Assembly (NCBI GenBank): GCA_048937405.1
Contig: JBHLNF010000003.1
Location: forward strand, 256,001 to 320,000
DNA from: Promethearchaeota archaeon
GTDB taxonomy: Archaea > Asgardarchaeota > Lokiarchaeia > Sigyniarchaeales > SOKP01
Reading direction: 5' to 3'
DNA: 64,000 nt
A program made the position numbers and the translations under genes. Positions 36,461 to 47,529 of this stretch are shown here, in pieces. Positions within the stretch are counted from its first letter, which is position 1. Each line of letters opens with the position of its first letter. The notes under the pieces were generated by a model. That model was not told the origin of the DNA. It saw only the letters and a program-made list of their open reading frames with translations, and searched no databases.

Positions 36461-37264
36461 GTGAATATTGGTAAAAAAATTAGAATTGAAAGAATAATTG
36501 ATCGGAAAAGCAAGAATACCATTATTATTCCAATGGATCATGGACTTACAATGGGAACCATTAAAGGATTAGAAAATATTGCTGACATGGTTGATAAAGT
36601 CGCATTAGGAGGCGCTAATGCCGTACTCGAACATTCAGGTATGGTTGACGCAGGTCATCGACAATCGGGTAAAGATATCGGTCTAATTATTCATTTATCT
36701 GGAGCGACTGAATTAGCACCAGATCCAAATAGAAAGGTTTTAGTTTGTTCGGTGGAAAGAGCCTTGAAAATGGGTGCTGATGCAGTATCTATACATATTA
36801 ATATTGGTGCTGATGATGAACCCGAGATGCTCCAAGACGCTAGTAAAGTTGTAGAAGCTTCAAGAGAGTGGGGGGTCCCATTATTAGCGATGATGTACCC
36901 ACGAGGAAGAAAAATTAAAGATGAGAATGATCCTGAAGTTGTAAATGTTGCTGTAAGAGCTGGGGCAGAATTAGGAGTTGATATTGTTAAAACGAATTAT
37001 CCTGGCGATATTGATGCTTTTAAAGAAATTGTTAAAGGAGTAAGTCATATTCCAGTAATAATCGCAGGAGGTCCAAAAATGGATACAATTCCAGATTTAT
37101 TACAAATGGTTTATGATTCACTAGAAGCAGGAGGAGCAGGAGTTGCATTTGGGCGAAACGTTTTTCAATCTGATGATCCTACAAAAATGGTCAGTGCAAT
37201 TAGCAAGATTGTACATAAAAACTATACAGTAAATGAAGTTCTGAAAGAATACGGATTTACTTAG
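36461..37264 (+). CDS. 2-amino-3,7-dideoxy-D-threo-hept-6-ulosonate (ADH) synthase / archaeal class IA aldolase
   Basis: [28 protein letters not shown] (Schiff-base Lys), AGGPK, GRNVFQ. Confidence 0.85.
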
Positions 37265-37274
37265 ATTACTCACT

Positions 37275-38549
37275 ATGAGGGAAAATTTGAAAATTTATAA
37301 ACCCTTTGAAGAAAAGGTTAAAAACCAGAAAAATCAACAGTTTCGTGTAATAATCTCATTTGATAATTTGTCAGATCGAGAAGATTTTTTAAAAAATAAT
37401 GAAGATCTGAAAATTTTAGGTAAATTTGATTTAATTCCATCTATTTATGTAAATTTAGTAAAAGAAAAAATAATCAACTATAGTAAAAGTAAATTAATCA
37501 AGAAGATCGAAGAAGATCAAAAACTCTATCAATCAATATTAGATGTACTTGAAATCTTAGAAATAAATAACTATAAAAATTCCCAAATCTCATATACTGG
37601 AAAAAATGTAAATGTAGGGATTATTGATGATGGAATTGATGTAAATTTTTCTTCAATAACTAAGAATATATTAAAATATCCTTTTTTCAACAGAAAAGCA
37701 AAAAACTATGATTTAAAGGATGCAAAAGATAAAATCAGCCATGGAACTTTAATGGCTAGTATAATTTGTAACCAATTTAAAAACGCAGATAATAATTACA
37801 TTGGAATTGCTCCAGATGCTAATATTATTGATTTTGATATATTCAATGTTAACCGAGAATACTACTTCTCAAATATTTTAAAGGTTTTCGATAAAATTAT
37901 AAGTGAAAATATAAATGTTGATATATTATTAATTTCTCTAAATTCAAAAGATAGTTCTGATGGTAAAGATATTTTGTCTTTAGCATGTGATCTATTAGTT
38001 GAACATGGAATTGTAGTTGTATGTTCATCTGGTAATTTTGGACCAGATCCATATACGATAGGGAGCCCTGGAGCCGCAGAAAAAATTATTGCAGTTGGAG
38101 CTCTCACAAAAAACCTAATTATTACTAATTTTAGCGGAAGGGGTCCTACTTTAGATAATAGAATAAAACCAGATATATGTTTACATGGATCTAATGTGAT
38201 AGTACCAATATCTCAAAATTTAAGAGTAAAATTATCTGGTACTAGTGTTTCTGCTTCAATTTGTGCTGGATTCATCGCTTTAATGAAAGAATATAATCCA
38301 AAAATGGGATATAATGATATCATTCAATTAATTAAAAAATCAAGCAGAGATTTGAACTATGATTCTAATGCTCAGGGATTAGGGATTTTAAGAATTATTG
38401 ATGTATTTAAAGAATTGGATTTGTATCATGAAAAACTCTTCCCCTATAATTATTTAGTTAAAAGATCTTTAATTTTTTCAATTGAATTTTTTATTATATT
38501 TGTTTTTATCTTCTATTTTGTCTATTTTTTTAATAGTTGGAATATCTAA
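37275..38549 (+). CDS. S8 subtilisin-like peptidase with prodomain and C-terminal TM helix
   Basis: IIDDG, HGT, SSGN, SGTS triad/oxyanion motifs; SGRGPT...KPDI; hydrophobic C-terminus. Confidence 0.85.
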   Translation: MRENLKIYKPFEEKVKNQKNQQFRVIISFDNLSDREDFLKNNEDLKILGKFDLIPSIYVNLVKEKIINYSKSKLIKKIEEDQKLYQSILDVLEILEINNYKNSQISYTGKNVNVGIIDDGIDVNFSSITKNILKYPFFNRKAKNYDLKDAKDKISHGTLMASIICNQFKNADNNYIGIAPDANIIDFDIFNVNREYYFSNILKVFDKIISENINVDILLISLNSKDSSDGKDILSLACDLLVEHGIVVVCSSGNFGPDPYTIGSPGAAEKIIAVGALTKNLIITNFSGRGPTLDNRIKPDICLHGSNVIVPISQNLRVKLSGTSVSASICAGFIALMKEYNPKMGYNDIIQLIKKSSRDLNYDSNAQGLGILRIIDVFKELDLYHEKLFPYNYLVKRSLIFSIEFFIIFVFIFYFVYFFNSWNI

Positions 38550-39103
38550 TTAAAAATCATGAGGTAAATAAAATATATCCTATATTTCATGTAGCTCTAC
38601 CTTTAATATTTACTGAAATCCCACGTTTAAAGAAATTAAAAATAAATAGATATTCTCTAATAATCGGTGCACTTCTTCCAGATATCATAGATAAACCATT
38701 GTTCCTTTTAGGATTTGGAAATGGTAGATTTCTTTCTCATACCTTATTATTTGCAATTATTAGTTTCCTAATTGTTCATTTTTCCTCAAAAAAAAATGTA
38801 AGCATTTCATTTCCATTTTTTATCGGTATTGTATTTCATTTTTTGTTAGACATTCCACATGTGCCTTTTTTTTATCCATTTATAAAATATGATTTTGGAG
38901 TTGTTGATGAACCATTCTTATTTTGGATTAAACAACTATGGACAGAGCCACTAGTAATAATTACCGAAGGGACAGGTGTGTTATTTATTATCTATATTTT
39001 AATAAAGAATAAATTGTATCAAATAGACAAATTATCTGAGTATTTAAGAGGAATAAATCAAACGTTTATACAAAATTCTAAAGAAGTCGAAATTAGTGTT
39101 TAA
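38537..39103 (+). CDS. Membrane-bound metal-dependent hydrolase (YdjM-like)
   Basis: H...GALLPDIIDK, RFLSHTL, HFLLD; real start possibly ATA at 38573. Confidence 0.8.
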   Translation: MEYLIKNHEVNKIYPIFHVALPLIFTEIPRLKKLKINRYSLIIGALLPDIIDKPLFLLGFGNGRFLSHTLLFAIISFLIVHFSSKKNVSISFPFFIGIVFHFLLDIPHVPFFYPFIKYDFGVVDEPFLFWIKQLWTEPLVIITEGTGVLFIIYILIKNKLYQIDKLSEYLRGINQTFIQNSKEVEISV

Positions 39104-39224
39104 TAGTATAGAAAATTATATTTTTTAAAATAGTTTTAATATGGTAATAAACCAAATACTAATTATTTAATAATTGGTTAATTAATTCTAAAATTACCTT
39201 AAAAACCAATTTTAATTATATTTA

Positions 39225-40739
39225 ATGGTATTTTCCTTGAAAAAATACGATGTACTTTTAATTCATCCACCTAGAGTGTTAAATCCAGATTATCGTAAAA
39301 ATGCTAAATTTATTCGAGGTACATTTATTTTTATACCTATGGGTGTTTTTGCTATTGCAGATTTACTTGAGAAAGAAGGTTTTGGAGTTAAGATAATAAA
39401 TTATCCGTTAGAGCAATATCTAAATCGTAATTGGAAATTAATCAACTTTCTCAAAAATATTGATTTTGAAGTGTGTGGATTGGATTTACATTGGCTTCAT
39501 AATGCTTACGGTGCAATGGAAATTGCTAAAATTGTGAAAAAAGCAAACCCAAATGCTAAAGTAGTACTTGGAGGATATAGTGCATCATATTACCATCATC
39601 AAATATTGAAATATTATAAAGATATAGATGGTATAATCAGAGGAGAAGGAGAAGTTCCACTACTTAAATATGTTCAAAGTATTAAAAAAAATCAATCTTT
39701 AGATAATGTCCCTAATTTATCTTATCGAGATTCTTTTAAACCCGTAAAAATTAATTCCCTTACATATATAGCAAAAACATTAGATAATCTAAATTTTACT
39801 AATTTTTCACTTCTGGAAAATGCAAAGCAATATTTTGAATGCAGTAGGCAAATGATGGGAATCTCTTTTAATCTTTCTATTGGAAGAGGTTGCCCTTTTA
39901 ATTGTCCATTTTGTGGAGGAGGTCAAAGGGCACAAAAAAGGTTATCAGGTCGAGAAAATGTCATCCTTAGAAAACCAGAAAAAGTAGTAGAAGATATTAG
40001 TAGTGTTCTCAATAATTTTAATATACCAAGTATTTTTTTTGGACACGGTGCTTATCCAGCTACCTTAAAATATTGGAAAAGATTATTTGGATTAATTCAG
40101 AAAGAAGATTTTGACATTGGGGGAGATTTAGAGATTTGGCGTTTACCATTTCCTAAATATATGTGGGATATATTCTATAAAACATTTCCTCGTAGATATT
40201 CATCACTTAGTATCTCTCCCAGAACAATGTCAAGTAGAGTACATCAAAAAATAAGGAAAATTTGTGATCCTACCTTTAGTTTTCCTAAAAAGCAAATAAA
40301 TGATTTAATAAAGAATGCAAATATATACAAAAGAACTTTAAGAATTTGGCTAACTGTCGGATTTCCTTTCCAATCTCACCTGGATATTCAAAAAGATTTT
40401 ATTTTTGCCTTAAAGTGTCAAATAAAATATGGTAAATCAATTTCAAAGCCCATTACTATTATGAATGAACCATATCATATTTTTCCGGGATCCCCTGCTC
40501 ATGAAGCTCCTGAGAAATTTGGTTTAAAATTAATTTTAAATTCATTTCCACAAATTTCTGCATTTTTTAAAAGAACTAAAATAACATTTTTCTATAATGC
40601 AATAAATTATGAAACTAATAGATTTTCTAAAACATCTATTCGTAATATAAATATGTTATTATTTTTAAGTAATTTACTCACTTCTTTTACTACAGGAGCT
40701 AAACTATCTGATAGAAAAGAACAAGATTCCAATATTTAA
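39225..40739 (+). CDS. Cobalamin-binding radical SAM enzyme
   Basis: LLIHPP, PMGV, VVLGG, RGEGE (B12-binding domain); GRGCPFNCPFC. Confidence 0.9.
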   Translation: MVFSLKKYDVLLIHPPRVLNPDYRKNAKFIRGTFIFIPMGVFAIADLLEKEGFGVKIINYPLEQYLNRNWKLINFLKNIDFEVCGLDLHWLHNAYGAMEIAKIVKKANPNAKVVLGGYSASYYHHQILKYYKDIDGIIRGEGEVPLLKYVQSIKKNQSLDNVPNLSYRDSFKPVKINSLTYIAKTLDNLNFTNFSLLENAKQYFECSRQMMGISFNLSIGRGCPFNCPFCGGGQRAQKRLSGRENVILRKPEKVVEDISSVLNNFNIPSIFFGHGAYPATLKYWKRLFGLIQKEDFDIGGDLEIWRLPFPKYMWDIFYKTFPRRYSSLSISPRTMSSRVHQKIRKICDPTFSFPKKQINDLIKNANIYKRTLRIWLTVGFPFQSHLDIQKDFIFALKCQIKYGKSISKPITIMNEPYHIFPGSPAHEAPEKFGLKLILNSFPQISAFFKRTKITFFYNAINYETNRFSKTSIRNINMLLFLSNLLTSFTTGAKLSDRKEQDSNI

Positions 40740-40879
40740 TCTATAAATATCAGTTTAATTAGTTTTTAAACTATTTCGAAATTTTTAAATGCAAATGATT
40801 TTTATTATTAAAAATATTACATATGAAACCTATCTAGAGAAATTATATATTCTACTTAAAATAATAATTATAATTAAAT

Positions 40880-41581
40880 ATGCCCTTTACACAAAAACTA
40901 AGCATTACGAGAATTATATTAATTTTAATCTTTTTTTTCGCTAGTATCCCTATTACACTAATTTGTGCGCTATTAGGAGATGCTACCATTTTAATTTCTA
41001 TTACAAAAGGTTATTTTACATCAGGAAATTCAATTTTCCTTCCTTATTTGTCTATTACTAATATTTTTTGGTTTTTACCTGATAAATTTCAATTTATACA
41101 GATCAGTTCTGGTTTTTTGATTGATAGTATAATTATCATAAATATATGTCCTATGGTTGAAAGAATTGCTTATCAATATTATATAAAGGTTTGTTCAGAG
41201 GAAGTTTTTCAAGAACCTTTTGATTTTGATCCTAAAAATCAAATCCATAATTTACATCAAGGTTCAGTCATACTTTTTGGATTAGGAGACGAGCCAATAC
41301 TTCCCTCTAATGTATTAATTTTATCTATTAAATTTAAAAAAAATGAAAGTCTAATAAATAAATGCAATAATTATTATTTTTTAAAAGAAAAAGGCAATAA
41401 ATTTGATGAGATTACTAGTATAAGACTATTTCACTTATCGTTTATATTGCACTATTCACATTTTCTACAATTTTTTAATATATATGATATTGAAAAATTA
41501 GATAGTATTTCTATCAATCAATATCTTTATCCTCAAACTATTATTTCATATTCAACTAAACCTTTTCAACGGGAGGGATAA
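40880..41581 (+). CDS. Hypothetical membrane-associated protein
   Basis: 233-aa ORF with hydrophobic N-terminal part; no recognised motif. Confidence 0.5.
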   Translation: MPFTQKLSITRIILILIFFFASIPITLICALLGDATILISITKGYFTSGNSIFLPYLSITNIFWFLPDKFQFIQISSGFLIDSIIIINICPMVERIAYQYYIKVCSEEVFQEPFDFDPKNQIHNLHQGSVILFGLGDEPILPSNVLILSIKFKKNESLINKCNNYYFLKEKGNKFDEITSIRLFHLSFILHYSHFLQFFNIYDIEKLDSISINQYLYPQTIISYSTKPFQREG

Positions 41582-41671
41582 AGATGATAACTTTCTTCTA
41601 TAACTTAATGAAAAATAATAATTTAAAGTTTAAATTTAAACATCCAAAAAATATTTTGAAATTTATATGAG

Positions 41672-43078
41672 GTGAATTTAATGGAATGGAAAAATGAAAT
41701 TGAAGATTTGTACAAACAAATAACGAATTTAACTCCTGAAGCGTTTCGCCCATCTGTTAAACCTATGTTACGTGAGGCTGCTGAAAAAACAGCGCAACTT
41801 AGGAATTCTGGATTTGTAAGTAGGGACGATTTGCTATCTGCATTATTTGAGATAACACCAGAAGCATTTCAACCTACAGTTGTCAAAGATTTGAAGACAA
41901 TAGGAATTGATACGGATAGATATATAAAATTATCAGAAATTAGAAAACAATACGCTCGCTCATGGGATGAAATTAGTGGAGCTTTCTTACCTGGTGTCTA
42001 TCATTTTACTATATATCTAACGGATCGATGCAATCAAAATTGTCTCCATTGTGCTGCCGCGGTAATGGAGAAACGTCCAGAATTTCCCACTGAAACTTGG
42101 ATTGAAATTATTGAGGATCTTGAACAAAGTTTACGAAAACGCGGTCGACGAGGATGTTATATATGGTTTGGAGGAGAACCTACTATTCGTAAAGATCTTA
42201 AAGATTTAATAAAATATTGTGGTGAAAAGGGCTATTATCAAGCACTTGCAACTAACGGAATTTTGTTTACCGAAGCACTGGCTAAATTATGCGCAGATGT
42301 TAAGATGAGCCATATTTTTATTAGTTATGATAGTACGGATCCCAAACGCGCTGCAAAAATTAGAGGGCATCCAAAAGCATACGAAGCAGCGGAAAAAGCG
42401 TTAGATTTAGCTGCAAAATATGGGATTTTTACCATTGCTAATGTAACTGCTCAAAAAGAGAATTTCGATGAATTAGATATGTTAAGGGAATATTTTAAAT
42501 CTAGAGGTGTAACGCCCTTTTATAGACCCCTGATCAAACAACGTTCGGCGGATTTAAATTGGGACGAAATCGGCTTAAGTATTGACGAATATCGACAATT
42601 CTATGATTTTAAATATAAAAATACAATAGAGGCTATCAGAAAAGGAGAAGGATCATCGCTCAATAAATTCTATACATGGGATATGGTGCCATTCATGGAG
42701 TGTCCTATAAATGATGAGGAAAGGACTGCGATCGAATGGGGCACAGGATGTCAAGCCTGTCGCTCAATTTCCGGGATTGATACTAATGGAGATATATTCC
42801 CTTGTGATTATCCCTCTGATTTAATCTTAGGCAATATTCTTGAGCAGAGTTGGGATAACATTATGGAAACTGAAATGTTCAAAAAAATTAGAGATCGAAA
42901 AATAAAAGGGAAGTGTTCAAATTGTCACCACCTTGATATGTGTGGTGGAGGTTGCCGGGTGCATGCAGAGAATGTAACGGGTGATTTTTTAGCTGCACTT
43001 CCTTTCTGTTGGCATGAAAATGATCATGAACATGAAGTTAATTTTGCAGATAAAGAAGAAGTAGAATTGCTAGAATGA
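41672..43078 (+). CDS. Radical SAM/SPASM enzyme with N-terminal PCP_red/DUF2621-like helical domain
   Basis: CNQNCLHC, GGEP, ATNG; SPASM cysteines GCQAC, PC, CSNC..CGGGC, FC. Likely start ATG 41681 after GAGGTGA. Confidence 0.9.
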   Translation: MNLMEWKNEIEDLYKQITNLTPEAFRPSVKPMLREAAEKTAQLRNSGFVSRDDLLSALFEITPEAFQPTVVKDLKTIGIDTDRYIKLSEIRKQYARSWDEISGAFLPGVYHFTIYLTDRCNQNCLHCAAAVMEKRPEFPTETWIEIIEDLEQSLRKRGRRGCYIWFGGEPTIRKDLKDLIKYCGEKGYYQALATNGILFTEALAKLCADVKMSHIFISYDSTDPKRAAKIRGHPKAYEAAEKALDLAAKYGIFTIANVTAQKENFDELDMLREYFKSRGVTPFYRPLIKQRSADLNWDEIGLSIDEYRQFYDFKYKNTIEAIRKGEGSSLNKFYTWDMVPFMECPINDEERTAIEWGTGCQACRSISGIDTNGDIFPCDYPSDLILGNILEQSWDNIMETEMFKKIRDRKIKGKCSNCHHLDMCGGGCRVHAENVTGDFLAALPFCWHENDHEHEVNFADKEEVELLE

Positions 43079-43155
43079 TTATTTAGAATTTAATATTCTT
43101 TAATAAAGTAATTTGAAAGAGATAAAAAACAAAAATAAAGGAGGTGATAATTTAA

Positions 43156-43545
43156 TTGAACACAAAAGAAGAATGGGAAGCATATCTCGAGCATTTCATG
43201 AAAGCCTACAATGAGATTCCAGATCTAGCGAAATTGTTAGACCCAATTGCACCATTAATCTTTCAATATGAAATAACTGATAAACCTGAGATGAGTTATT
43301 GGCAGTTTATTGATCATGATAAGATGGATTGGGGAATAGGTATTTATTCCGGTCCTGAAGCCCCAAAAATCATCCATAAAACAGATTTCAACACAATTAA
43401 GAAGGTAAATTCTGGAGAATCTGATCCAATTCAAGCGACTATGGCGGGTACTTATATTGTGGAAGGTGACGTGAGTAAGTTGATGGCATGTGCATCATTA
43501 TTGCCACTTAATGCAAAAGCTCATGAAAAAGCAAATCAACAATAA
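43156..43545 (+). CDS. SCP2 (sterol carrier protein 2) lipid-binding domain protein
   Basis: DPIQATMAGTYIVEGDVSKLM matches the SCP2 C-terminal signature; strong SD GGAGGTGA at 43140-43147. Confidence 0.8.
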   Translation: MNTKEEWEAYLEHFMKAYNEIPDLAKLLDPIAPLIFQYEITDKPEMSYWQFIDHDKMDWGIGIYSGPEAPKIIHKTDFNTIKKVNSGESDPIQATMAGTYIVEGDVSKLMACASLLPLNAKAHEKANQQ

Positions 43546-43668
43546 AGAAAAGAGTATATATTAAAATCTAATAAGAAATTTTTAATTTCATTTTAAAAAT
43601 CTATAAACCAAGAAAAAATAGTCAATAGGAAAAAAGAGAAAAATAATTAATAAACTAAATATCTTAAG

Positions 43669-45081
43669 GTGAGAATGATTCAATTTTATGTTGCGACAAA
43701 TTGGGATCCTAATCTAATCGATGAATTAGCTAACTATCCTGTAGTTGATTTATATGGAGTTGCAGATCATACAATTGTTGGAGGAGGTCGACCCTCGTTT
43801 TTGTTACGAAATATATCTGATGAAGATATAGCAGAATACATAAAAAAAGTACATGATAATAAATTGAAATTTTCATATCTATTAAATGCCCCATGTATGA
43901 ATAATATGGAGTATGATCCACGCTATCATAAAGAGTTGCTTAATTATCTTCAATGGATTACTGATATTGGAGTTGATGGCGTTATAGTAACTATTCCTTT
44001 TTTAATACAACTTATAAAAGAACAATTTCCTAAGTTAAAAATACGAGTCTCCACTATTTCGCATGTTAATAGTGTGAATAGAGCGAAATTTTATGAAATG
44101 TTAGGAGCTGATGAAATCACTCCAGACGTCATGATTAATCGAGATTTTAGGACTTTAAAAAATATTAAGAAAGCAGTTAAATGTAAAATTGTCCTTCTAT
44201 TAACTGATGGTTGTTTATATCAATGTCCTTTCAGATATTATCATTATAATATCTTAGGCCATTCTTCTCAAACATATCAACAATTCGACAGAAATTACAT
44301 CGATACTTGTATATTAAATTGTAGTGTTATTAAATTTTCAAATCCTGCGGAGATTCTCAAATGTAGGTGGGTTCGTCCAGAAGATTTATCCCATTATGAA
44401 GAAATTGGAATCACAGATTTTAAAATAGCTGGACGTCGGATGTCAACCGATTGGATTATTAGATCTGTGAAAGCTTTTTCTTCAAGAAAATATGAAGGAA
44501 ACCTCATTGACATTATTCAAGGATTTACTATGTCAATTGGAGTAGATAAAGATCCAAATATTAAATTCACAAAAACAGTCACTGAAGAGATTAAATCCAA
44601 ATTAATAATTGATAATACGAAACTTGATGGATTTATAAATTTTTTTAAAAAGCAAGATTGTATCTCAATGTGCAATGAGTGTAATTACTGTGATGAATGG
44701 GCAAAGAAAGCGGTTATATTAAATAGAGAGGAATCTACGAGATATGTTGAGTCTATAAAAGATTATCTTGAGGACATATTAACTAGCCGTGAGTTTGGAA
44801 TCGAAACGGCTAAACCAAAAGAGATAAAGAACGATGGTTTATTATGGGATAGTGAAACTAAGATTATTTTTGATGAATTAATAAAATTATCACCACAGCA
44901 GTTTCATCAAATTGCTAAGATGGTAATTTCTTCTCTAGCAGAAGAAAAAGCCAAAAAAAGGTTTTCAGAAGTTGTAGAAAACAAAGATATTGTTGAAGCA
45001 TTTATAGAAGGAACACCTGAACCATTTCAAGCAGATATGAGAGAAGGTCTCAAAAAGCATGGACTTTTGGAAGGAAAATAA
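43669..45081 (+). CDS. Peptidase U32-family Fe-S protein (putative O2-independent hydroxylase) with C-terminal PCP_red/DUF2621-like domain
   Basis: GVDGVIV, RVST, CLYQC-x27-CILNC, WVRPEDL, FKIAGR, extra CISMCNECNYC. Likely start ATG 43675. Confidence 0.85.
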   Translation: MRMIQFYVATNWDPNLIDELANYPVVDLYGVADHTIVGGGRPSFLLRNISDEDIAEYIKKVHDNKLKFSYLLNAPCMNNMEYDPRYHKELLNYLQWITDIGVDGVIVTIPFLIQLIKEQFPKLKIRVSTISHVNSVNRAKFYEMLGADEITPDVMINRDFRTLKNIKKAVKCKIVLLLTDGCLYQCPFRYYHYNILGHSSQTYQQFDRNYIDTCILNCSVIKFSNPAEILKCRWVRPEDLSHYEEIGITDFKIAGRRMSTDWIIRSVKAFSSRKYEGNLIDIIQGFTMSIGVDKDPNIKFTKTVTEEIKSKLIIDNTKLDGFINFFKKQDCISMCNECNYCDEWAKKAVILNREESTRYVESIKDYLEDILTSREFGIETAKPKEIKNDGLLWDSETKIIFDELIKLSPQQFHQIAKMVISSLAEEKAKKRFSEVVENKDIVEAFIEGTPEPFQADMREGLKKHGLLEGK

Positions 45082-45150
45082 ATTTTTTAGAGAAATATAA
45101 AAATGAAGAAGACTATCTCTCAGGTTGTAATCTGACTTGAAATAAATCTT

Positions 45151-46587
45151 CTATTTTTTTTTATTTGATTTTTTAGATCTTTGTTTCAGGGAGTGTTCTA
45201 TCTTCTGAAAGATTGCTTTAACCATAATTATATTCACTACTCTTGGAATATGAAATCTTAAACCTCGATTTAGAACGACAGTTTTAATTCTAGGCCAAAG
45301 TTTTTTAGAATTTGAAACTTCAAAAAAAGCTCTATTCAAGAAATCTTTCAAATCTTTTATTGATAAATAGGGATATTTAATAATTGGCACTGACCAGTTA
45401 AATTCACGCCAATCATTGCTTAATAAAAGATTGTCCTCTAAAACTTTTTCCATCAATTTTGTTCCCGGAAATGGAGTTAATACTGAAAAGGTTGTTAAAT
45501 CGATTTCTAATTTCTTAGCAATTTCGATTGTAGATTCTAAATCATCTTTTTTATCCTCAAAATTGGATCCAAGAATAATGTTTCCTTGAATAAAATAGCC
45601 ATAATCATGAAGAATTTTTAAAGCTAATTTGATTTGTTTGAATTTAGTTTGTTTGTTAAGAAAATCCAATGTTCGATCAGAAAAACTCTCGATTCCTAAA
45701 AATAGGAAAATAAAACCAGCATCAGCCATCTTTTTAATAATTTTCGGGTGCTTTACAATCATATCAACTCGAATTTGAGTTGAAAAATATTTTCTAATAC
45801 CTTCCTGAATAATGGCATTACACAGTTCTTCTACAAATTTATGATCTACCAAAAAATTATCATCAATGATAAAAATAAATGGACTCTGATTTTTAACCTC
45901 ATTTGAATTTAATTCTTTTATAATACTTGGTATTGAACGAGTCCGGTATCTCTTTCGATAAAATTCGTGAATACAACAAAAATTACATGAATATGGACAA
46001 CCTCGACTAGTTTCAATGCAATCAATAGGAAAACCATAAAAAGTGTATTCCACTTTTGCTTCTTTTGAACGATAGTGTCGAGAAGGTAATTTAATATGTT
46101 TTAAATCTAATAATTCTCGGTCAGGGTTATGAATTATTTTTCCATTTTTTTTATATGATAATCCTGGGATACCAATGGGAGAATTATTTTGGATAAGCTC
46201 CCGAAAAGTTATTTCTCCCTCACATCTTATCAGGATATCAATAGATTGAAATTCAAGAGTTTCTTTAGGAACAAGCGTAGGGTGCCAACCACCTATAACT
46301 GTCTTTGATCCATAAGTTTTAGCAATATTAGCAATTTTAACTACATGATAGATTTGTGGAGTATAATTGCAACTAATCCCTACATAATCAGGTTTAAATT
46401 GATAAATTGTATTTTCAATGCTTTTTAAATCTATAGTTTTTAGCCTATTATCAATTATAAGGACATCAGCAATTTCTTCAATATTTGCAGCAATATATTC
46501 TAAACCCAATGGTGGAAGAATTACATTTTTTTGGGTACCATGCTTAAAAACGTCAGGATAATCTGGATTTATAAGTAGTACTCTCAG
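45151..46587 (-). CDS. Cobalamin-binding radical SAM enzyme; start extended to a CTG codon
   Basis: SRGCPYSCNFC, GGWHPT, IIDDNF, LGIES, LTPFPGT; frame stays open 26 codons upstream of 46509, giving (M)RVLLINP...PPLGLEY. Confidence 0.9.
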   Translation of the reverse strand: MRVLLINPDYPDVFKHGTQKNVILPPLGLEYIAANIEEIADVLIIDNRLKTIDLKSIENTIYQFKPDYVGISCNYTPQIYHVVKIANIAKTYGSKTVIGGWHPTLVPKETLEFQSIDILIRCEGEITFRELIQNNSPIGIPGLSYKKNGKIIHNPDRELLDLKHIKLPSRHYRSKEAKVEYTFYGFPIDCIETSRGCPYSCNFCCIHEFYRKRYRTRSIPSIIKELNSNEVKNQSPFIFIIDDNFLVDHKFVEELCNAIIQEGIRKYFSTQIRVDMIVKHPKIIKKMADAGFIFLFLGIESFSDRTLDFLNKQTKFKQIKLALKILHDYGYFIQGNIILGSNFEDKKDDLESTIEIAKKLEIDLTTFSVLTPFPGTKLMEKVLEDNLLLSNDWREFNWSVPIIKYPYLSIKDLKDFLNRAFFEVSNSKKLWPRIKTVVLNRGLRFHIPRVVNIIMVKAIFQKIEHSLKQRSKKSNKKK

Positions 46588-46788
46588 AGTATATCATCTA
46601 AATTGATATAACTTATTTTCTAATAAATTAGGCTGAAATTTATTTTTCCTATAATATGCAATTTCCTATATATTAGTAATTAAAAAATCTAACTCTATTT
46701 ATTTTTATTTATAATTTTGAAAATTATTAGTTTAATAATTAGAAAATGCAATATTTAATACTGAACGTACAAATTTTTAAATAGTAAG

Positions 46789-47529
46789 ATGACTGAAAAT
46801 AAACCTCTTCATGTAATTATTGATAACAGAGAGTTGAAATTGATGGCTCTATTAGATAATAAAAATGATATAATAACATATGAATCAAAACAATTAGATA
46901 TCGCGGATATTGTTATTTCGAACGAAGTTGCAATAGAGAGAAAAGAGGGATTTGATTTTGTGTCTTCTATAATGGATAATAGACTATTTGAACAATTATT
47001 ACGTTTAAAAGACACATATGAAAATCCTATCCTAATATTAGAAGGTTTAAATAATGAAGTTTTTGAAAATACAGGTATGAAAATATCATCAATCTATGGT
47101 GCTCTTTCTTTTATTTCATATAAAATAGGAATTTCTGTAATTCCAACCAGAAATTTAGAAGATACGGCAATAGCAATTGAAAGAATTGCTTATCGGGAGC
47201 AAGTAAAAGATAGTATGCCAATATTTTCAAGAAGAGCTCCAAAGCAAATGTCAAAAAAGGAGAGAAGATCATTTATTATTGAAGGGTTAGTTGATATTGG
47301 TGCTAAAAAAGCTAAGACTTTAATCGAGAAGTTTAAAACTCCATATAACGTCTTTAAAGCAATAAAAAATACTGAAATCTTATATACAAAAACGGGAAAC
47401 CCTAAGGGCATTAGAGGCCCACTTGAAGTTCTTACTGGATTTGGCTGGAAATTTGTTGAAAAAAACCAAAAACTTCTTTTTGGGAAAGAAAAAAAAAGTC
47501 CTCAAAAACGGATTAATGATAAATATTAA
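46789..47529 (+). CDS. xpf: XPF/ERCC4 structure-specific endonuclease (short form, no helicase)
   Basis: IIDNRE, ADI, IERK, RLFEQ, ILEG, followed by HhH motifs. Confidence 0.85.
   Translation: MTENKPLHVIIDNRELKLMALLDNKNDIITYESKQLDIADIVISNEVAIERKEGFDFVSSIMDNRLFEQLLRLKDTYENPILILEGLNNEVFENTGMKISSIYGALSFISYKIGISVIPTRNLEDTAIAIERIAYREQVKDSMPIFSRRAPKQMSKKERRSFIIEGLVDIGAKKAKTLIEKFKTPYNVFKAIKNTEILYTKTGNPKGIRGPLEVLTGFGWKFVEKNQKLLFGKEKKSPQKRINDKY

What the first reader, a model, noticed from the sequence alone, without database searches (positions are those of the whole stretch)
41687..45063. The two enzymes of the operon carry the same 73-aa helical domain at opposite ends
Seen: radical SAM N-terminus (41687-41905, WKNEIEDLYKQITNLTPEAFRPSVKPMLREAAEKTAQLRNSGFVSRDDLLSALFEITPEAFQPTVVKDLKTIG) and U32 C-terminus (44845-45063, WDSETKIIFDELIKLSPQQFHQIAKMVISSLAEEKAKKRFSEVVENKDIVEAFIEGTPEPFQADMREGLKKHG) align without gaps at 23/73 identities (manual count), each with an internal (T/S)P..F repeat. 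Known: the W..E...L..P.F.R...AE..A...V pattern resembles the PCP_red domain of BchB/ChlB and DUF2621. Inference: a docking tag that either pairs the two enzymes or lets each bind the same partner (SCP2 or an electron donor), independent evidence that they act in one pathway.
Basis: partly seen in the sequence, partly recalled or inferred. Interest (0 to 1): 0.78.

Follow-up and report, generated by a model that had tools for sequence, protein, structure and literature searches.

The report
Shared helical tag on pathway enzymes
A small four-helix domain, distantly related to the tail of chlorophyll-pathway reductases, sits on both the radical SAM enzyme and the U32 enzyme of an accessory Asgard-archaeal gene cluster. 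In relatives it sits on up to five enzyme types of the same cluster, so it is probably a common handle linking them to one partner or substrate.

Summary
The rSAM N-terminus (41687-41905) and the U32 C-terminus (44845-45063) align 23/73 without gaps (BLASTP E=7e-13). Family profiles match at 99.3% probability (E=1.7e-20). AlphaFold gives a confident four-helix fold (pLDDT 96). The domain is itself a tandem duplication of a helix-(S/T)PxxF-helix unit.

The window shows only a minimal version. In related clusters the same domain also sits on a second rSAM/SPASM paralogue, on an ABBA aromatic prenyltransferase (N- or C-terminal), and on a longer U32 that continues into a fused SCP2. Elsewhere it is fused to SCP2, ferredoxin, methyltransferase, HpaB and PNPOx domains, or stands alone.

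It is rare: 249 clusters among 1.84 billion representatives. Within genomes it is confined to these clusters. The own genome has exactly two copies.

The link to PCP_red/DUF2621 is real but remote. It is sub-threshold for the window's own sequences and is bridged by stand-alone relatives.

The block is missing, with synteny intact, in two same-genus genomes.

A docking or recognition role for a common partner (SCP2 with its cargo is the best candidate) is plausible but unproven. Bacterial clusters with a single tagged enzyme and no SCP2 nearby argue against strict pairwise docking. First-stage notes of this scan flagged the same stretch before.

The parts
41681..43078 (+). radical SAM/SPASM enzyme (AhbD/NirJ-like, below every equivalog cut-off); probable start ATG 41681
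   Evidence: Pfam Radical_SAM 78 bits and SPASM 39 bits. NCBIfam best hit AhbD, 130 bits against a cut-off of 500. Orthologues begin at MEW.
41687..41905 (+). domain copy 1 (rSAM-type), N-terminal, residues 3-75
   Evidence: (E=9e-31 against the domain HMM).
41702..41779 (+). repeat unit 1 of copy 1 (helix-TPEAF-helix)
   Evidence: hhalign of the two halves: 90.5% probability, E=1.4e-6.
41825..41902 (+). repeat unit 2 of copy 1
43156..43545 (+). stand-alone SCP2 lipid-carrier protein (129 aa), candidate common partner
   Evidence: Pfam SCP2 24 bits against a cut-off of 21.3. The orthologous domain is fused behind the helical domain in long U32 proteins.
43669..45081 (+). U32-family Fe-S protein (470 aa) with conserved Cys groups
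   Evidence: Pfam Peptidase_U32 52.5 bits. Cys 74/180/184/212/216 are 96-99% conserved and Cys 329/333/336/339 are 100% conserved, in P0003 numbering.
44845..45063 (+). domain copy 2 (U32-type), C-terminal, ends 5 residues before the last residue of the protein
   Evidence: E=2e-30. DUF2621 at 25.7-27.1 bits.
40880..41581 (+). membrane protein (2-3 N-terminal TM segments), encoded immediately upstream of rSAM1 in most Asgard loci
   Evidence: Gene maps; hydropathy; no Pfam family.
39225..40739 (+). B12-binding radical SAM (TIGR04190-like); separable neighbour
   Evidence: NCBIfam 252 bits against a cut-off of 500. In same-genus genome G008 the orthologue (72% aa identity) stands without the rest of the block.
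45151..46509 (-). B12-binding radical SAM (BchE/HpnR-like), convergent; part of the indel block
39173..46701 (.). about 7.5-kb block absent at the syntenic site of same-genus genome G049
   Evidence: blastn: G049 is colinear with window 36500-39172 and then with 46702-47529.

Best explanation
The 73-aa segment is an independently folding four-helix domain. It arose by tandem duplication of a roughly 35-aa helix-(S/T)PxxF-helix unit and is a remote member of the PCP_red/DUF2621 superfamily. It behaves as a mobile, cluster-specific accessory module placed on the soluble tailoring enzymes of one accessory anaerobic pathway: rSAM/SPASM enzymes, an ABBA aromatic prenyltransferase and U32 Fe-S proteins. 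That pathway most likely modifies a prenylated or otherwise lipophilic metabolite.

Proposed mechanism (inferred). SCP2 holds the hydrophobic intermediate. Each enzyme uses its helical domain as a handle to engage the same partner, either the loaded SCP2 or a scaffold built around it, so that the intermediate passes from enzyme to enzyme. Enzymes with SCP2 fused directly to them (the rSAM/SPASM-SCP2 proteins) do without the handle.

Shown here: homology of the copies, the fold, mobility between enzyme classes and between termini, restriction to these clusters, co-occurrence and fusion with SCP2, and presence or absence as a block.

Inferred: that the domain binds anything at all, and that the partner is SCP2.
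For: Homology and fold: and 35 (pLDDT 96.4, pTM 0.83, four helices).

The domain sits on five enzyme classes inside the same clusters. These are rSAM1, rSAM2, PTase_Orf2 (PF11468, N-terminal, or C-terminal in L025/L028/L035), the 470-aa U32, and the long U32.

Domain copies group by host-enzyme class. The N- and C-terminal prenyltransferase copies form separate clades inside the rSAM-type clade, which indicates repeated shuffling.

The domain is cluster-restricted. The own genome has two copies only. All 20 copies in four genomes lie in six clusters. Only 249 representative clusters among 1.84 billion carry it.

Link to SCP2. An SCP2 domain was found in 24 of the 43 loci, including most Asgard loci and the Thermoplasmata locus; seven Asgard loci without one end inside the long-U32 gene, before the place where its SCP2 tail would lie. 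Fusions occur in both orders: U32-dom-SCP2, SCP2-dom (P0285, P0368) and U32-dom-SCP2...SCP2-dom (P0268). rSAM/SPASM-SCP2 fusions lack the helical domain.

Non-catalytic recruitment is suggested by fusions to a 2Fe-2S ferredoxin (two copies), a methyltransferase, HpaB and PNPOx, and by many stand-alone forms.

Precedent: the SCP2 proteins UbiJ and UbiT organise ubiquinone enzymes around bound intermediates, and UbiT works with the U32 pair UbiU-UbiV (PMC6747719).
Against: Bacterial loci L033, L038 and L039 have one tagged enzyme (the rSAM), and none of L032, L033, L038 and L039 has an SCP2 within 7 kb; their adjacent prenyltransferases (L032, L033, L039) lack the tag.

AlphaFold of a natural dom-SCP2 segment gives only pTM 0.67 with a low-confidence linker (pLDDT 58-75). 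No confident packing is predicted.

The linker between the domain and SCP2 varies in length and is of low complexity, as expected from a simple fusion of adjacent genes.

Both the domain (mean net charge -2 to -4) and SCP2 (mean -6) are acidic. Residues conserved in all five classes (W1, P17, A32-E33, P58, mostly F61) look structural. No universal polar patch is evident.

No binding was measured, and no multimer prediction was available.
Confidence: 0.5

Rival explanations
1. Substrate cap. The domain folds back over the active site of its own enzyme, or of a partner protomer, and closes the pocket around the hydrophobic substrate, as the C-terminal region of BchB does in dark-operative protochlorophyllide reductase. 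No separate partner is involved.
For: Remote homology to PCP_red of BchB and BchZ. The BchB C-terminal helix covers the Pchlide cavity (PMC4071322). This works with a single tagged enzyme, as in L033, L038 and L039. The segment joining the domain to the rSAM core is conserved (GID..RY..L..IR..Y..SW).
Against: The same domain serves three unrelated catalytic folds (rSAM TIM barrel, ABBA barrel, U32). It sits at either end of the prenyltransferase. It is abundant as a stand-alone 75-105-aa protein and is fused to non-enzymes such as ferredoxin and SCP2. In U32 it hangs on a Lys-rich, poorly conserved linker. I did not verify that the capping BchB helix is the Pfam PCP_red segment.
Confidence: 0.22
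2. Enzyme-enzyme docking by direct contact between domains. The rSAM-type and U32-type copies form homo- or heterodimers and so build a multi-enzyme complex.
For: Archaeal clusters carry 2-5 tagged proteins, always with at least one rSAM-type copy, and in loci that reach far enough also a U32-type copy. Ferredoxin fusions carry two copies. The two types have distinct, class-specific conserved surfaces.
Against: Clusters with a single tagged protein exist. No evidence for oligomerisation was obtained.
Confidence: 0.15
3. Docking site for a low-potential electron donor (ferredoxin or flavodoxin) that reduces the Fe-S clusters of the rSAM and U32 enzymes.
For: Both window enzymes are Fe-S proteins that need reduction. 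The domain is fused to 2Fe-2S ferredoxin and PNPOx-like flavoproteins elsewhere.
Against: The domain is equally common on ABBA prenyltransferases, and occurs on a SAM methyltransferase. Neither needs electrons.
Confidence: 0.07
4. Chance or compositional resemblance of two helical tails; not a shared domain.
For: The profile search also picked up TPR and repeat proteins as false positives.
Against: E=7e-13 pairwise and 1.7e-20 profile against profile, full-length and gapless. The domain is conserved across hundreds of orthologues and models with high confidence.
Confidence: 0.01

Closest known systems
PCP_red (PF08369), the C-terminal helical region of BchB/ChlB and BchZ, and stand-alone forms such as Asr4154 (PDB 2l09)
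   Same: Short all-helical module with a W...(I/L)P..(F)R...AE..A signature. It is linked to the present domain through stand-alone relatives that match both profiles. The 2l09 structure aligns at Z 6.2. In DPOR the BchB C-terminal helix covers the substrate cavity (PMC4071322).
   Different: The Pfam model is 45 positions long, about one repeat unit, whereas the domain here is a 73-aa double unit. The window's sequences score 12-13 bits against a cut-off of 32.5. The host enzymes are rSAM, U32 and prenyltransferase, not nitrogenase-like reductases. The organism has no chlorophyll pathway context.
DUF2621 (PF11084)
   Same: Best Pfam match. Profile positions about 50-139 cover the whole 73-aa domain. 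29 of 51 cluster copies and 47 of 62 stand-alone relatives match it. The U32 copy is at the cut-off: 25.7-27.1 bits against 27.7.
   Different: The first 50 or so profile positions of DUF2621 are not matched. The rSAM copy scores only 13-16 bits. DUF2621 has no known function, so membership explains nothing.
UbiT / UbiU-UbiV O2-independent ubiquinone hydroxylation system (PMC6747719)
   Same: An SCP2 protein is encoded beside U32 Fe-S protein(s) with conserved cysteines. In related loci two U32 paralogues lie side by side, recalling the UbiU-UbiV pair.
   Different: Scores fall far below the UbiU equivalog cut-off (14.8 bits against 440). The cysteine spacing differs (CX3CX27CX3C plus an extra CX3CX2CX2C). 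The window has a single U32. The partners are rSAM/SPASM and ABBA prenyltransferase enzymes. Neither the UbiT/U/V paper nor my literature searches mention a helical tag on these proteins.
RiPP recognition element (PqqD-like RRE) on radical SAM/SPASM maturases
   Same: Functional analogy only. An RRE is a small non-catalytic domain found fused to several different tailoring enzymes of one cluster or free-standing. On SPASM enzymes it is N-terminal. It gives all enzymes a grip on one shared substrate. This comparison rests on my own knowledge.
   Different: An RRE is a winged helix-turn-helix with a beta-sheet, whereas this domain is four helices. There is no PqqD Pfam hit. No precursor-peptide ORF fits in the intergenic gaps.
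AAA+ lid (C-terminal four-helix bundle), e.g. BchI 1g8p
   Same: Best structural match: Z 9.4, rmsd 2.5 over 70 residues. Many other AAA+ lids match at Z 6-8. The helix-loop-helix motif 'AE..A...g...V...D...A' is shared.
   Different: There is no ATPase domain. A Z in this range is common for small helical bundles according to the tool's own calibration. There is no significant sequence match.

Membership tests
PCP_red (PF08369) | Scores above the Pfam gathering cut-off (32.5 bits) | tested here: not met
   rSAM copy 12.9 bits, E=0.12. U32 copy no hit. Genome-wide search 12.2 bits. 7 of 51 cluster copies reach E<=0.1, best 0.0044.
PCP_red (PF08369) | Homology demonstrable through intermediate sequences (superfamily level) | tested here: met
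   The domain profile finds stand-alone 75-105-aa proteins at whole-library E-values from 1e-21 to 1e-6. Of 62 of them, 26 hit PCP_red (best 1.2e-7), 8 hit BchZ TIGR02014 and 1-2 hit BchB models. P0345 and P0365 hit both PCP_red and DUF2621.
PCP_red (PF08369) | Fold like solved PCP_red proteins (2l09, 2kru; BchB C-terminus) | tested here: inconclusive
   2l09 at Z 6.2, rmsd 3.2, 55 residues. By sequence profile, 2l09 gives E=0.24 and 2kru E=0.7. BchB chains are not among the listed rows.
DUF2621 (PF11084) | Scores above the gathering cut-off (27.7 bits) | tested here: inconclusive
   U32 copy 25.7-27.1 bits (27.9 with neighbouring frame pieces). rSAM copy 13.1-15.6 bits.
DUF2621 (PF11084) | Full-length match including the N-terminal 50 or so profile positions | tested here: not met
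   Matches cover profile positions 50-139 only.
UbiT/UbiU/UbiV system | SCP2 domain protein encoded with U32 protein(s) | tested here: met
   PF02036 24 bits (cut-off 21.3) and PF01136 52.5 bits in adjacent genes.
UbiT/UbiU/UbiV system | Equivalog-level similarity to UbiU or UbiV | tested here: not met
   NF047963 UbiU 14.8 bits against 440. TrhP 28 bits against 534.
UbiT/UbiU/UbiV system | Four conserved Cys for a 4Fe-4S cluster (recurrent CX6CX15CX3/4C motif; PMC6747719) | tested here: inconclusive
   Cys 180/184/212/216 are 96-99% conserved, but with CX3CX27CX3C spacing. There is an extra, fully conserved CX3CX2CX2C at 329-339. Cluster binding was not tested.
UbiT/UbiU/UbiV system | Two U32 paralogues forming a heterodimer | tested here: not met
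   The own genome has a single U32 gene. Some relatives have a 384-aa and a 570-690-aa U32 pair.
RiPP recognition element (PqqD-like) | Winged-helix fold or PqqD profile match, and a precursor peptide gene | tested here: not met
   All-helical model. No PqqD hit. No plausible small ORF in the intergenic gaps.
AAA+ lid domain | Follows a P-loop ATPase core | tested here: not met
   No ATPase domain in either protein. The similarity is structural only, Z 9.4.

The most novel reading that the evidence does not exclude
The domain is the address tag of an undescribed anaerobic multi-enzyme assembly. On this reading a carrier protein (SCP2) presents a prenylated aromatic or other lipid intermediate. 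Every tailoring enzyme is recruited to it through a PCP_red-like four-helix handle: rSAM/SPASM, B12-rSAM, ABBA prenyltransferase, the U32 oxygen-independent hydroxylase and ferredoxin. This would be a small-molecule counterpart of the leader-peptide/RRE logic of RiPP pathways. It would also give the PCP_red/DUF2621 superfamily its first general function.
Probability: 0.3. Interest if true: 0.85.

Novelty: new variant of a known kind. Interest (0 to 1): 0.64.

Why it matters
PCP_red and DUF2621 are domains with no assigned general function. Here one branch of that superfamily marks nearly every soluble enzyme of a conserved, laterally mobile anaerobic gene cluster. That cluster combines radical SAM chemistry, an aromatic prenyltransferase, UbiU/V-like U32 proteins and an SCP2 carrier.

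If the tag is a recruitment handle, it gives a sequence signature for finding all members of the pathway, including ferredoxins and methyltransferases encoded elsewhere. It also gives a direct experimental entry point, since the domain is only 73 aa, to an unknown lipid or quinone-like metabolism in Lokiarchaeia-type Asgard archaea and several anaerobic bacteria.

My literature searches found nothing on this cluster or on this domain architecture.

Tried and rejected
Genomic context for the stand-alone and unusual fusion proteins could therefore not be fetched.

2. The PDB sequence-profile searches with the cluster domain and with the stand-alone relatives gave nothing significant. Foldseek against the PDB gave no hit with E<=0.001, only weak histone-fold rows.

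3. RiPP hypothesis: there is no precursor-like ORF in the AT-rich gaps of the block, and no RRE.

4. AlphaFold of a natural dom-SCP2 segment, used as a stand-in for a multimer prediction, gave pTM 0.67. This is inconclusive. No coordinates or PAE could be inspected.

5. Charge complementarity between the domain and SCP2: both are acidic.

6. A membrane-anchor partner common to all clusters: the Asgard membrane ORF has no counterpart in the bacterial loci checked.

7. Long repeat and TPR proteins in the profile search (P0251, P0257, P0342, P0383) are false positives.

8. The ESM Atlas gave only low-score leads (0.81), though to PCP_red/DUF2621 clusters.

9. Four literature searches for the cluster or the domain returned nothing relevant.
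Full report
**Observation.** They align without gaps at 23/73 identities, BLASTP E=7e-13. This is not a peculiarity of one genome. Among 120 orthologues of each enzyme (60-90% identical, mostly Asgard MAGs), 119 of each keep the segment. The rSAM segment finds 117 of 120 U32 proteins by phmmer, and the U32 segment finds 115 of 120 rSAM proteins. Profile against profile gives 99.3% probability, E=1.7e-20, over all 73 columns.

AlphaFold on a 51-sequence alignment gives four helices (3-13, 18-38, 46-56, 59-72) with pLDDT 96.4 and pTM 0.83. It is therefore an autonomous small domain. Orthologues start at MEW, so the rSAM gene probably starts at 41681.

**What else carries the domain.**
- A domain HMM against every six-frame ORF of the 4.47-Mb genome finds these two copies only; the next hit has E=0.41.
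- The window holds a reduced version of a larger cluster. In 43 related loci the usual Asgard arrangement is: B12-rSAM; a small membrane protein; rSAM/SPASM 1; a paralogous rSAM/SPASM 2; another B12-rSAM; a roughly 390-aa ABBA aromatic prenyltransferase (PF11468, E=1e-53 to 1e-63); SCP2; and U32.
- The domain sits at the N-terminus of both rSAM paralogues and at the C-terminus of U32.
- On the prenyltransferase it is N-terminal, or C-terminal in L025, L028 and L035.
- Other clusters replace the 470-aa U32 by a 384-aa U32-like protein plus a 570-690-aa U32. The longer one carries the domain and then, after a variable Lys/Glu-rich linker, a C-terminal SCP2.
- rSAM/SPASM-SCP2 fusion proteins in the same clusters lack the helical domain.
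- The own genome has no prenyltransferase, no second rSAM paralogue and no long U32.

**Global distribution.** A profile search of 1.84 billion representatives finds only 249 clusters at E<=0.001. Of the 148 newly listed hits that I classified:
- about 70 are stand-alone proteins, most of 75-105 aa, though some of these are probably fragments;
- the rest are mostly U32, prenyltransferase and rSAM fusions;
- further forms are LuxC-dom-rSAM, SCP2-dom (P0285, P0368), U32-dom-SCP2...SCP2-dom (P0268), two copies plus a 2Fe-2S thioredoxin-like ferredoxin (P0330, P0389), HpaB-dom, dom-PNPOx, dom-methyltransferase, glyoxalase-dom and another rSAM-dom;
- four TPR or repeat proteins are false positives.

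In a tree of domain sequences the copies group by host-enzyme class (U32 support 0.96; N-terminal prenyltransferase 1.0; long U32 0.95). The N- and C-terminal prenyltransferase copies form separate clades within the rSAM-type clade. The domain was therefore shuffled more than once and has since evolved with its host enzyme.

**Family assignment.**
- Direct Pfam scores for the window's sequences are sub-threshold. The U32 copy scores 25.7-27.1 bits against DUF2621 (cut-off 27.7). The rSAM copy scores 13-16 bits against DUF2621 and 12.9 bits against PCP_red (cut-off 32.5).
- Among cluster copies, 29 of 51 touch DUF2621 and 7 of 51 touch PCP_red.
- The stand-alone relatives found by the domain profile bridge the gap. 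47 of 62 hit DUF2621 (best 3e-12), 26 of 62 hit PCP_red (best 1e-7), and 8 of 62 hit the BchZ model. Some proteins hit both Pfam families.
- The ESM Atlas neighbours, at a low score of 0.81, are also PCP_red/DUF2621 clusters.
- Structurally, the best matches are AAA+ lid bundles (BchI 1g8p, Z 9.4) and, lower, the stand-alone PCP_red protein Asr4154 (Z 6.2). Values in this range are common for small helical bundles.

I therefore call it a remote member of the PCP_red/DUF2621 superfamily. It is not a member of either Pfam family as defined.

**Pathway context.** The rSAM is AhbD/NirJ-like but far below every equivalog cut-off. The U32 keeps Cys 74/180/184/212/216 and a fully conserved CX3CX2CX2C at 329-339, which suggests Fe-S clusters. 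An SCP2 beside a U32 recalls UbiT with UbiU-UbiV, where SCP2 is thought to hold the hydrophobic intermediates (PMC6747719).

Bacterial relatives pair the tagged rSAM with an untagged ABBA prenyltransferase:
- The Thermoanaerobaculia locus L039 adds two P450 genes.
- The Pseudobacteroides locus L032 adds a tagged U32, a DAHP-synthase-family gene and a NUDIX gene.

Together this points to tailoring of a prenylated aromatic or similar lipophilic molecule.

**The block is accessory.**
- In a sample of 81 genomes of the phylum, only 4 have the domain, all in the window's own family. All 20 copies in those four genomes lie in six clusters.
- Five near-complete relatives, including two of the same genus, lack the U32 as well.
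- In same-genus genome G049 the flanks are colinear with window 36500-39172 and then 46702-47529. About 7.5 kb is therefore present or absent as a block.
- In G008 an orthologue of the first B12-rSAM (72% aa identity) lies alone downstream of the Hef-like gene. That gene is therefore separable from the rest of the block.

**Mechanism.** The domain occurs on three unrelated catalytic folds, at either terminus, on non-enzymes and free-standing, yet inside genomes only in these clusters. This pattern fits a recruitment or recognition module better than a part of any one active site.

SCP2 is the best candidate for the common partner:
- an SCP2 domain was found in 24 of the 43 loci, including most Asgard loci, and seven Asgard loci without one stop inside the long-U32 gene before its SCP2 tail;
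- it is fused next to the domain in both orders;
- enzymes with SCP2 fused directly to them lack the tag.

The evidence against:
- bacterial clusters exist with one tagged enzyme and no SCP2 within 7 kb;
- AlphaFold of a natural dom-SCP2 segment gives only pTM 0.67;
- the dom-SCP2 linker is variable;
- there is no charge complementarity and no universally conserved polar patch.

The main rival is a BchB-like substrate cap (PMC4071322). Direct contact between domains and electron-donor docking are less likely. The latter is disfavoured because prenyltransferases and a methyltransferase also carry the tag.

**Novelty.** Searches of the paper library for the cluster or the domain returned nothing relevant.

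Noticed in passing
window 39173-46701: The six-gene block (two B12-rSAMs, membrane ORF, rSAM/SPASM, SCP2, U32) is an indel relative to same-genus genome G049. There the subtilase/membrane-ORF flank joins the Hef-like gene directly. The neighbourhood between the Hef-like gene and the next conserved gene also holds different cargo in G008 and G049, so this looks like a variable hotspot.
   Followed up: partly
L053:117-1616 (G008:C90): An orthologue of the TIGR04190-like B12-rSAM (window 39225-40739; 72% aa identity) sits alone downstream of the Hef-like gene in a genome that lacks the rSAM, SCP2 and U32. It is likely a separate function. Archaeal B12-rSAMs include GDGT ring synthases according to bioRxiv 10.1101/2025.10.20.683597.
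   Followed up: partly
L003-L031 (e.g. L003:4526-14488): Fuller Asgard versions of the cluster add a second rSAM/SPASM paralogue, a third B12-rSAM, an ABBA aromatic prenyltransferase (PF11468), rSAM/SPASM-SCP2 fusions, and a UbiU/UbiV-like pair of U32 paralogues. I found no soluble aromatic prenyltransferase cluster of this kind described for Asgard archaea in the paper library.
   Followed up: partly
L039:783-6527: In a Thermoanaerobaculia MAG the tagged rSAM and an untagged ABBA prenyltransferase are followed by two cytochrome P450 genes. The locus as fetched has no U32-like ORF. This may be an oxygen-dependent replacement of the hydroxylation steps.
   Followed up: no
L042:2938-8407: A 962-996-aa LuxC-domain-rSAM/SPASM fusion lies between a LuxC and a LuxE homologue (acyl-CoA reductase and acyl-protein synthetase) in an unclassified bacterium. 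It is a different pathway context for the same tag.
   Followed up: no
L007:274-1734 (-): Short ORFs of 50 and 75 aa encode truncated rSAM1-type and rSAM2-type domain copies beside a paralogue of the membrane ORF. They look like relics of a duplicated cluster. Next to them is a membrane protein with a CDP-alcohol phosphatidyltransferase motif (1771-2712, -).
   Followed up: partly
window 43669-45081: The U32 protein has, besides the usual four-Cys group, a fully conserved ferredoxin-like CX3CX2CX2C motif (P0003 residues 329-339). This suggests a second Fe-S cluster not described for UbiU or UbiV.
   Followed up: partly
window 39104-46788 (intergenic gaps): Every gene of the block is preceded by a 70-280-bp spacer of 12-25% G+C, so the 'operon' may be several transcription units. 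Promoters were not analysed.
   Followed up: no
model m48455d7618d0: The central helix-loop-helix 'AE..A...g...V...D...A' resembles the helix-strand-helix motif shared by AAA+ lids and histone folds. Weak sequence hits to Lon lids and an archaeal histone-fold protein appeared.
   Followed up: no
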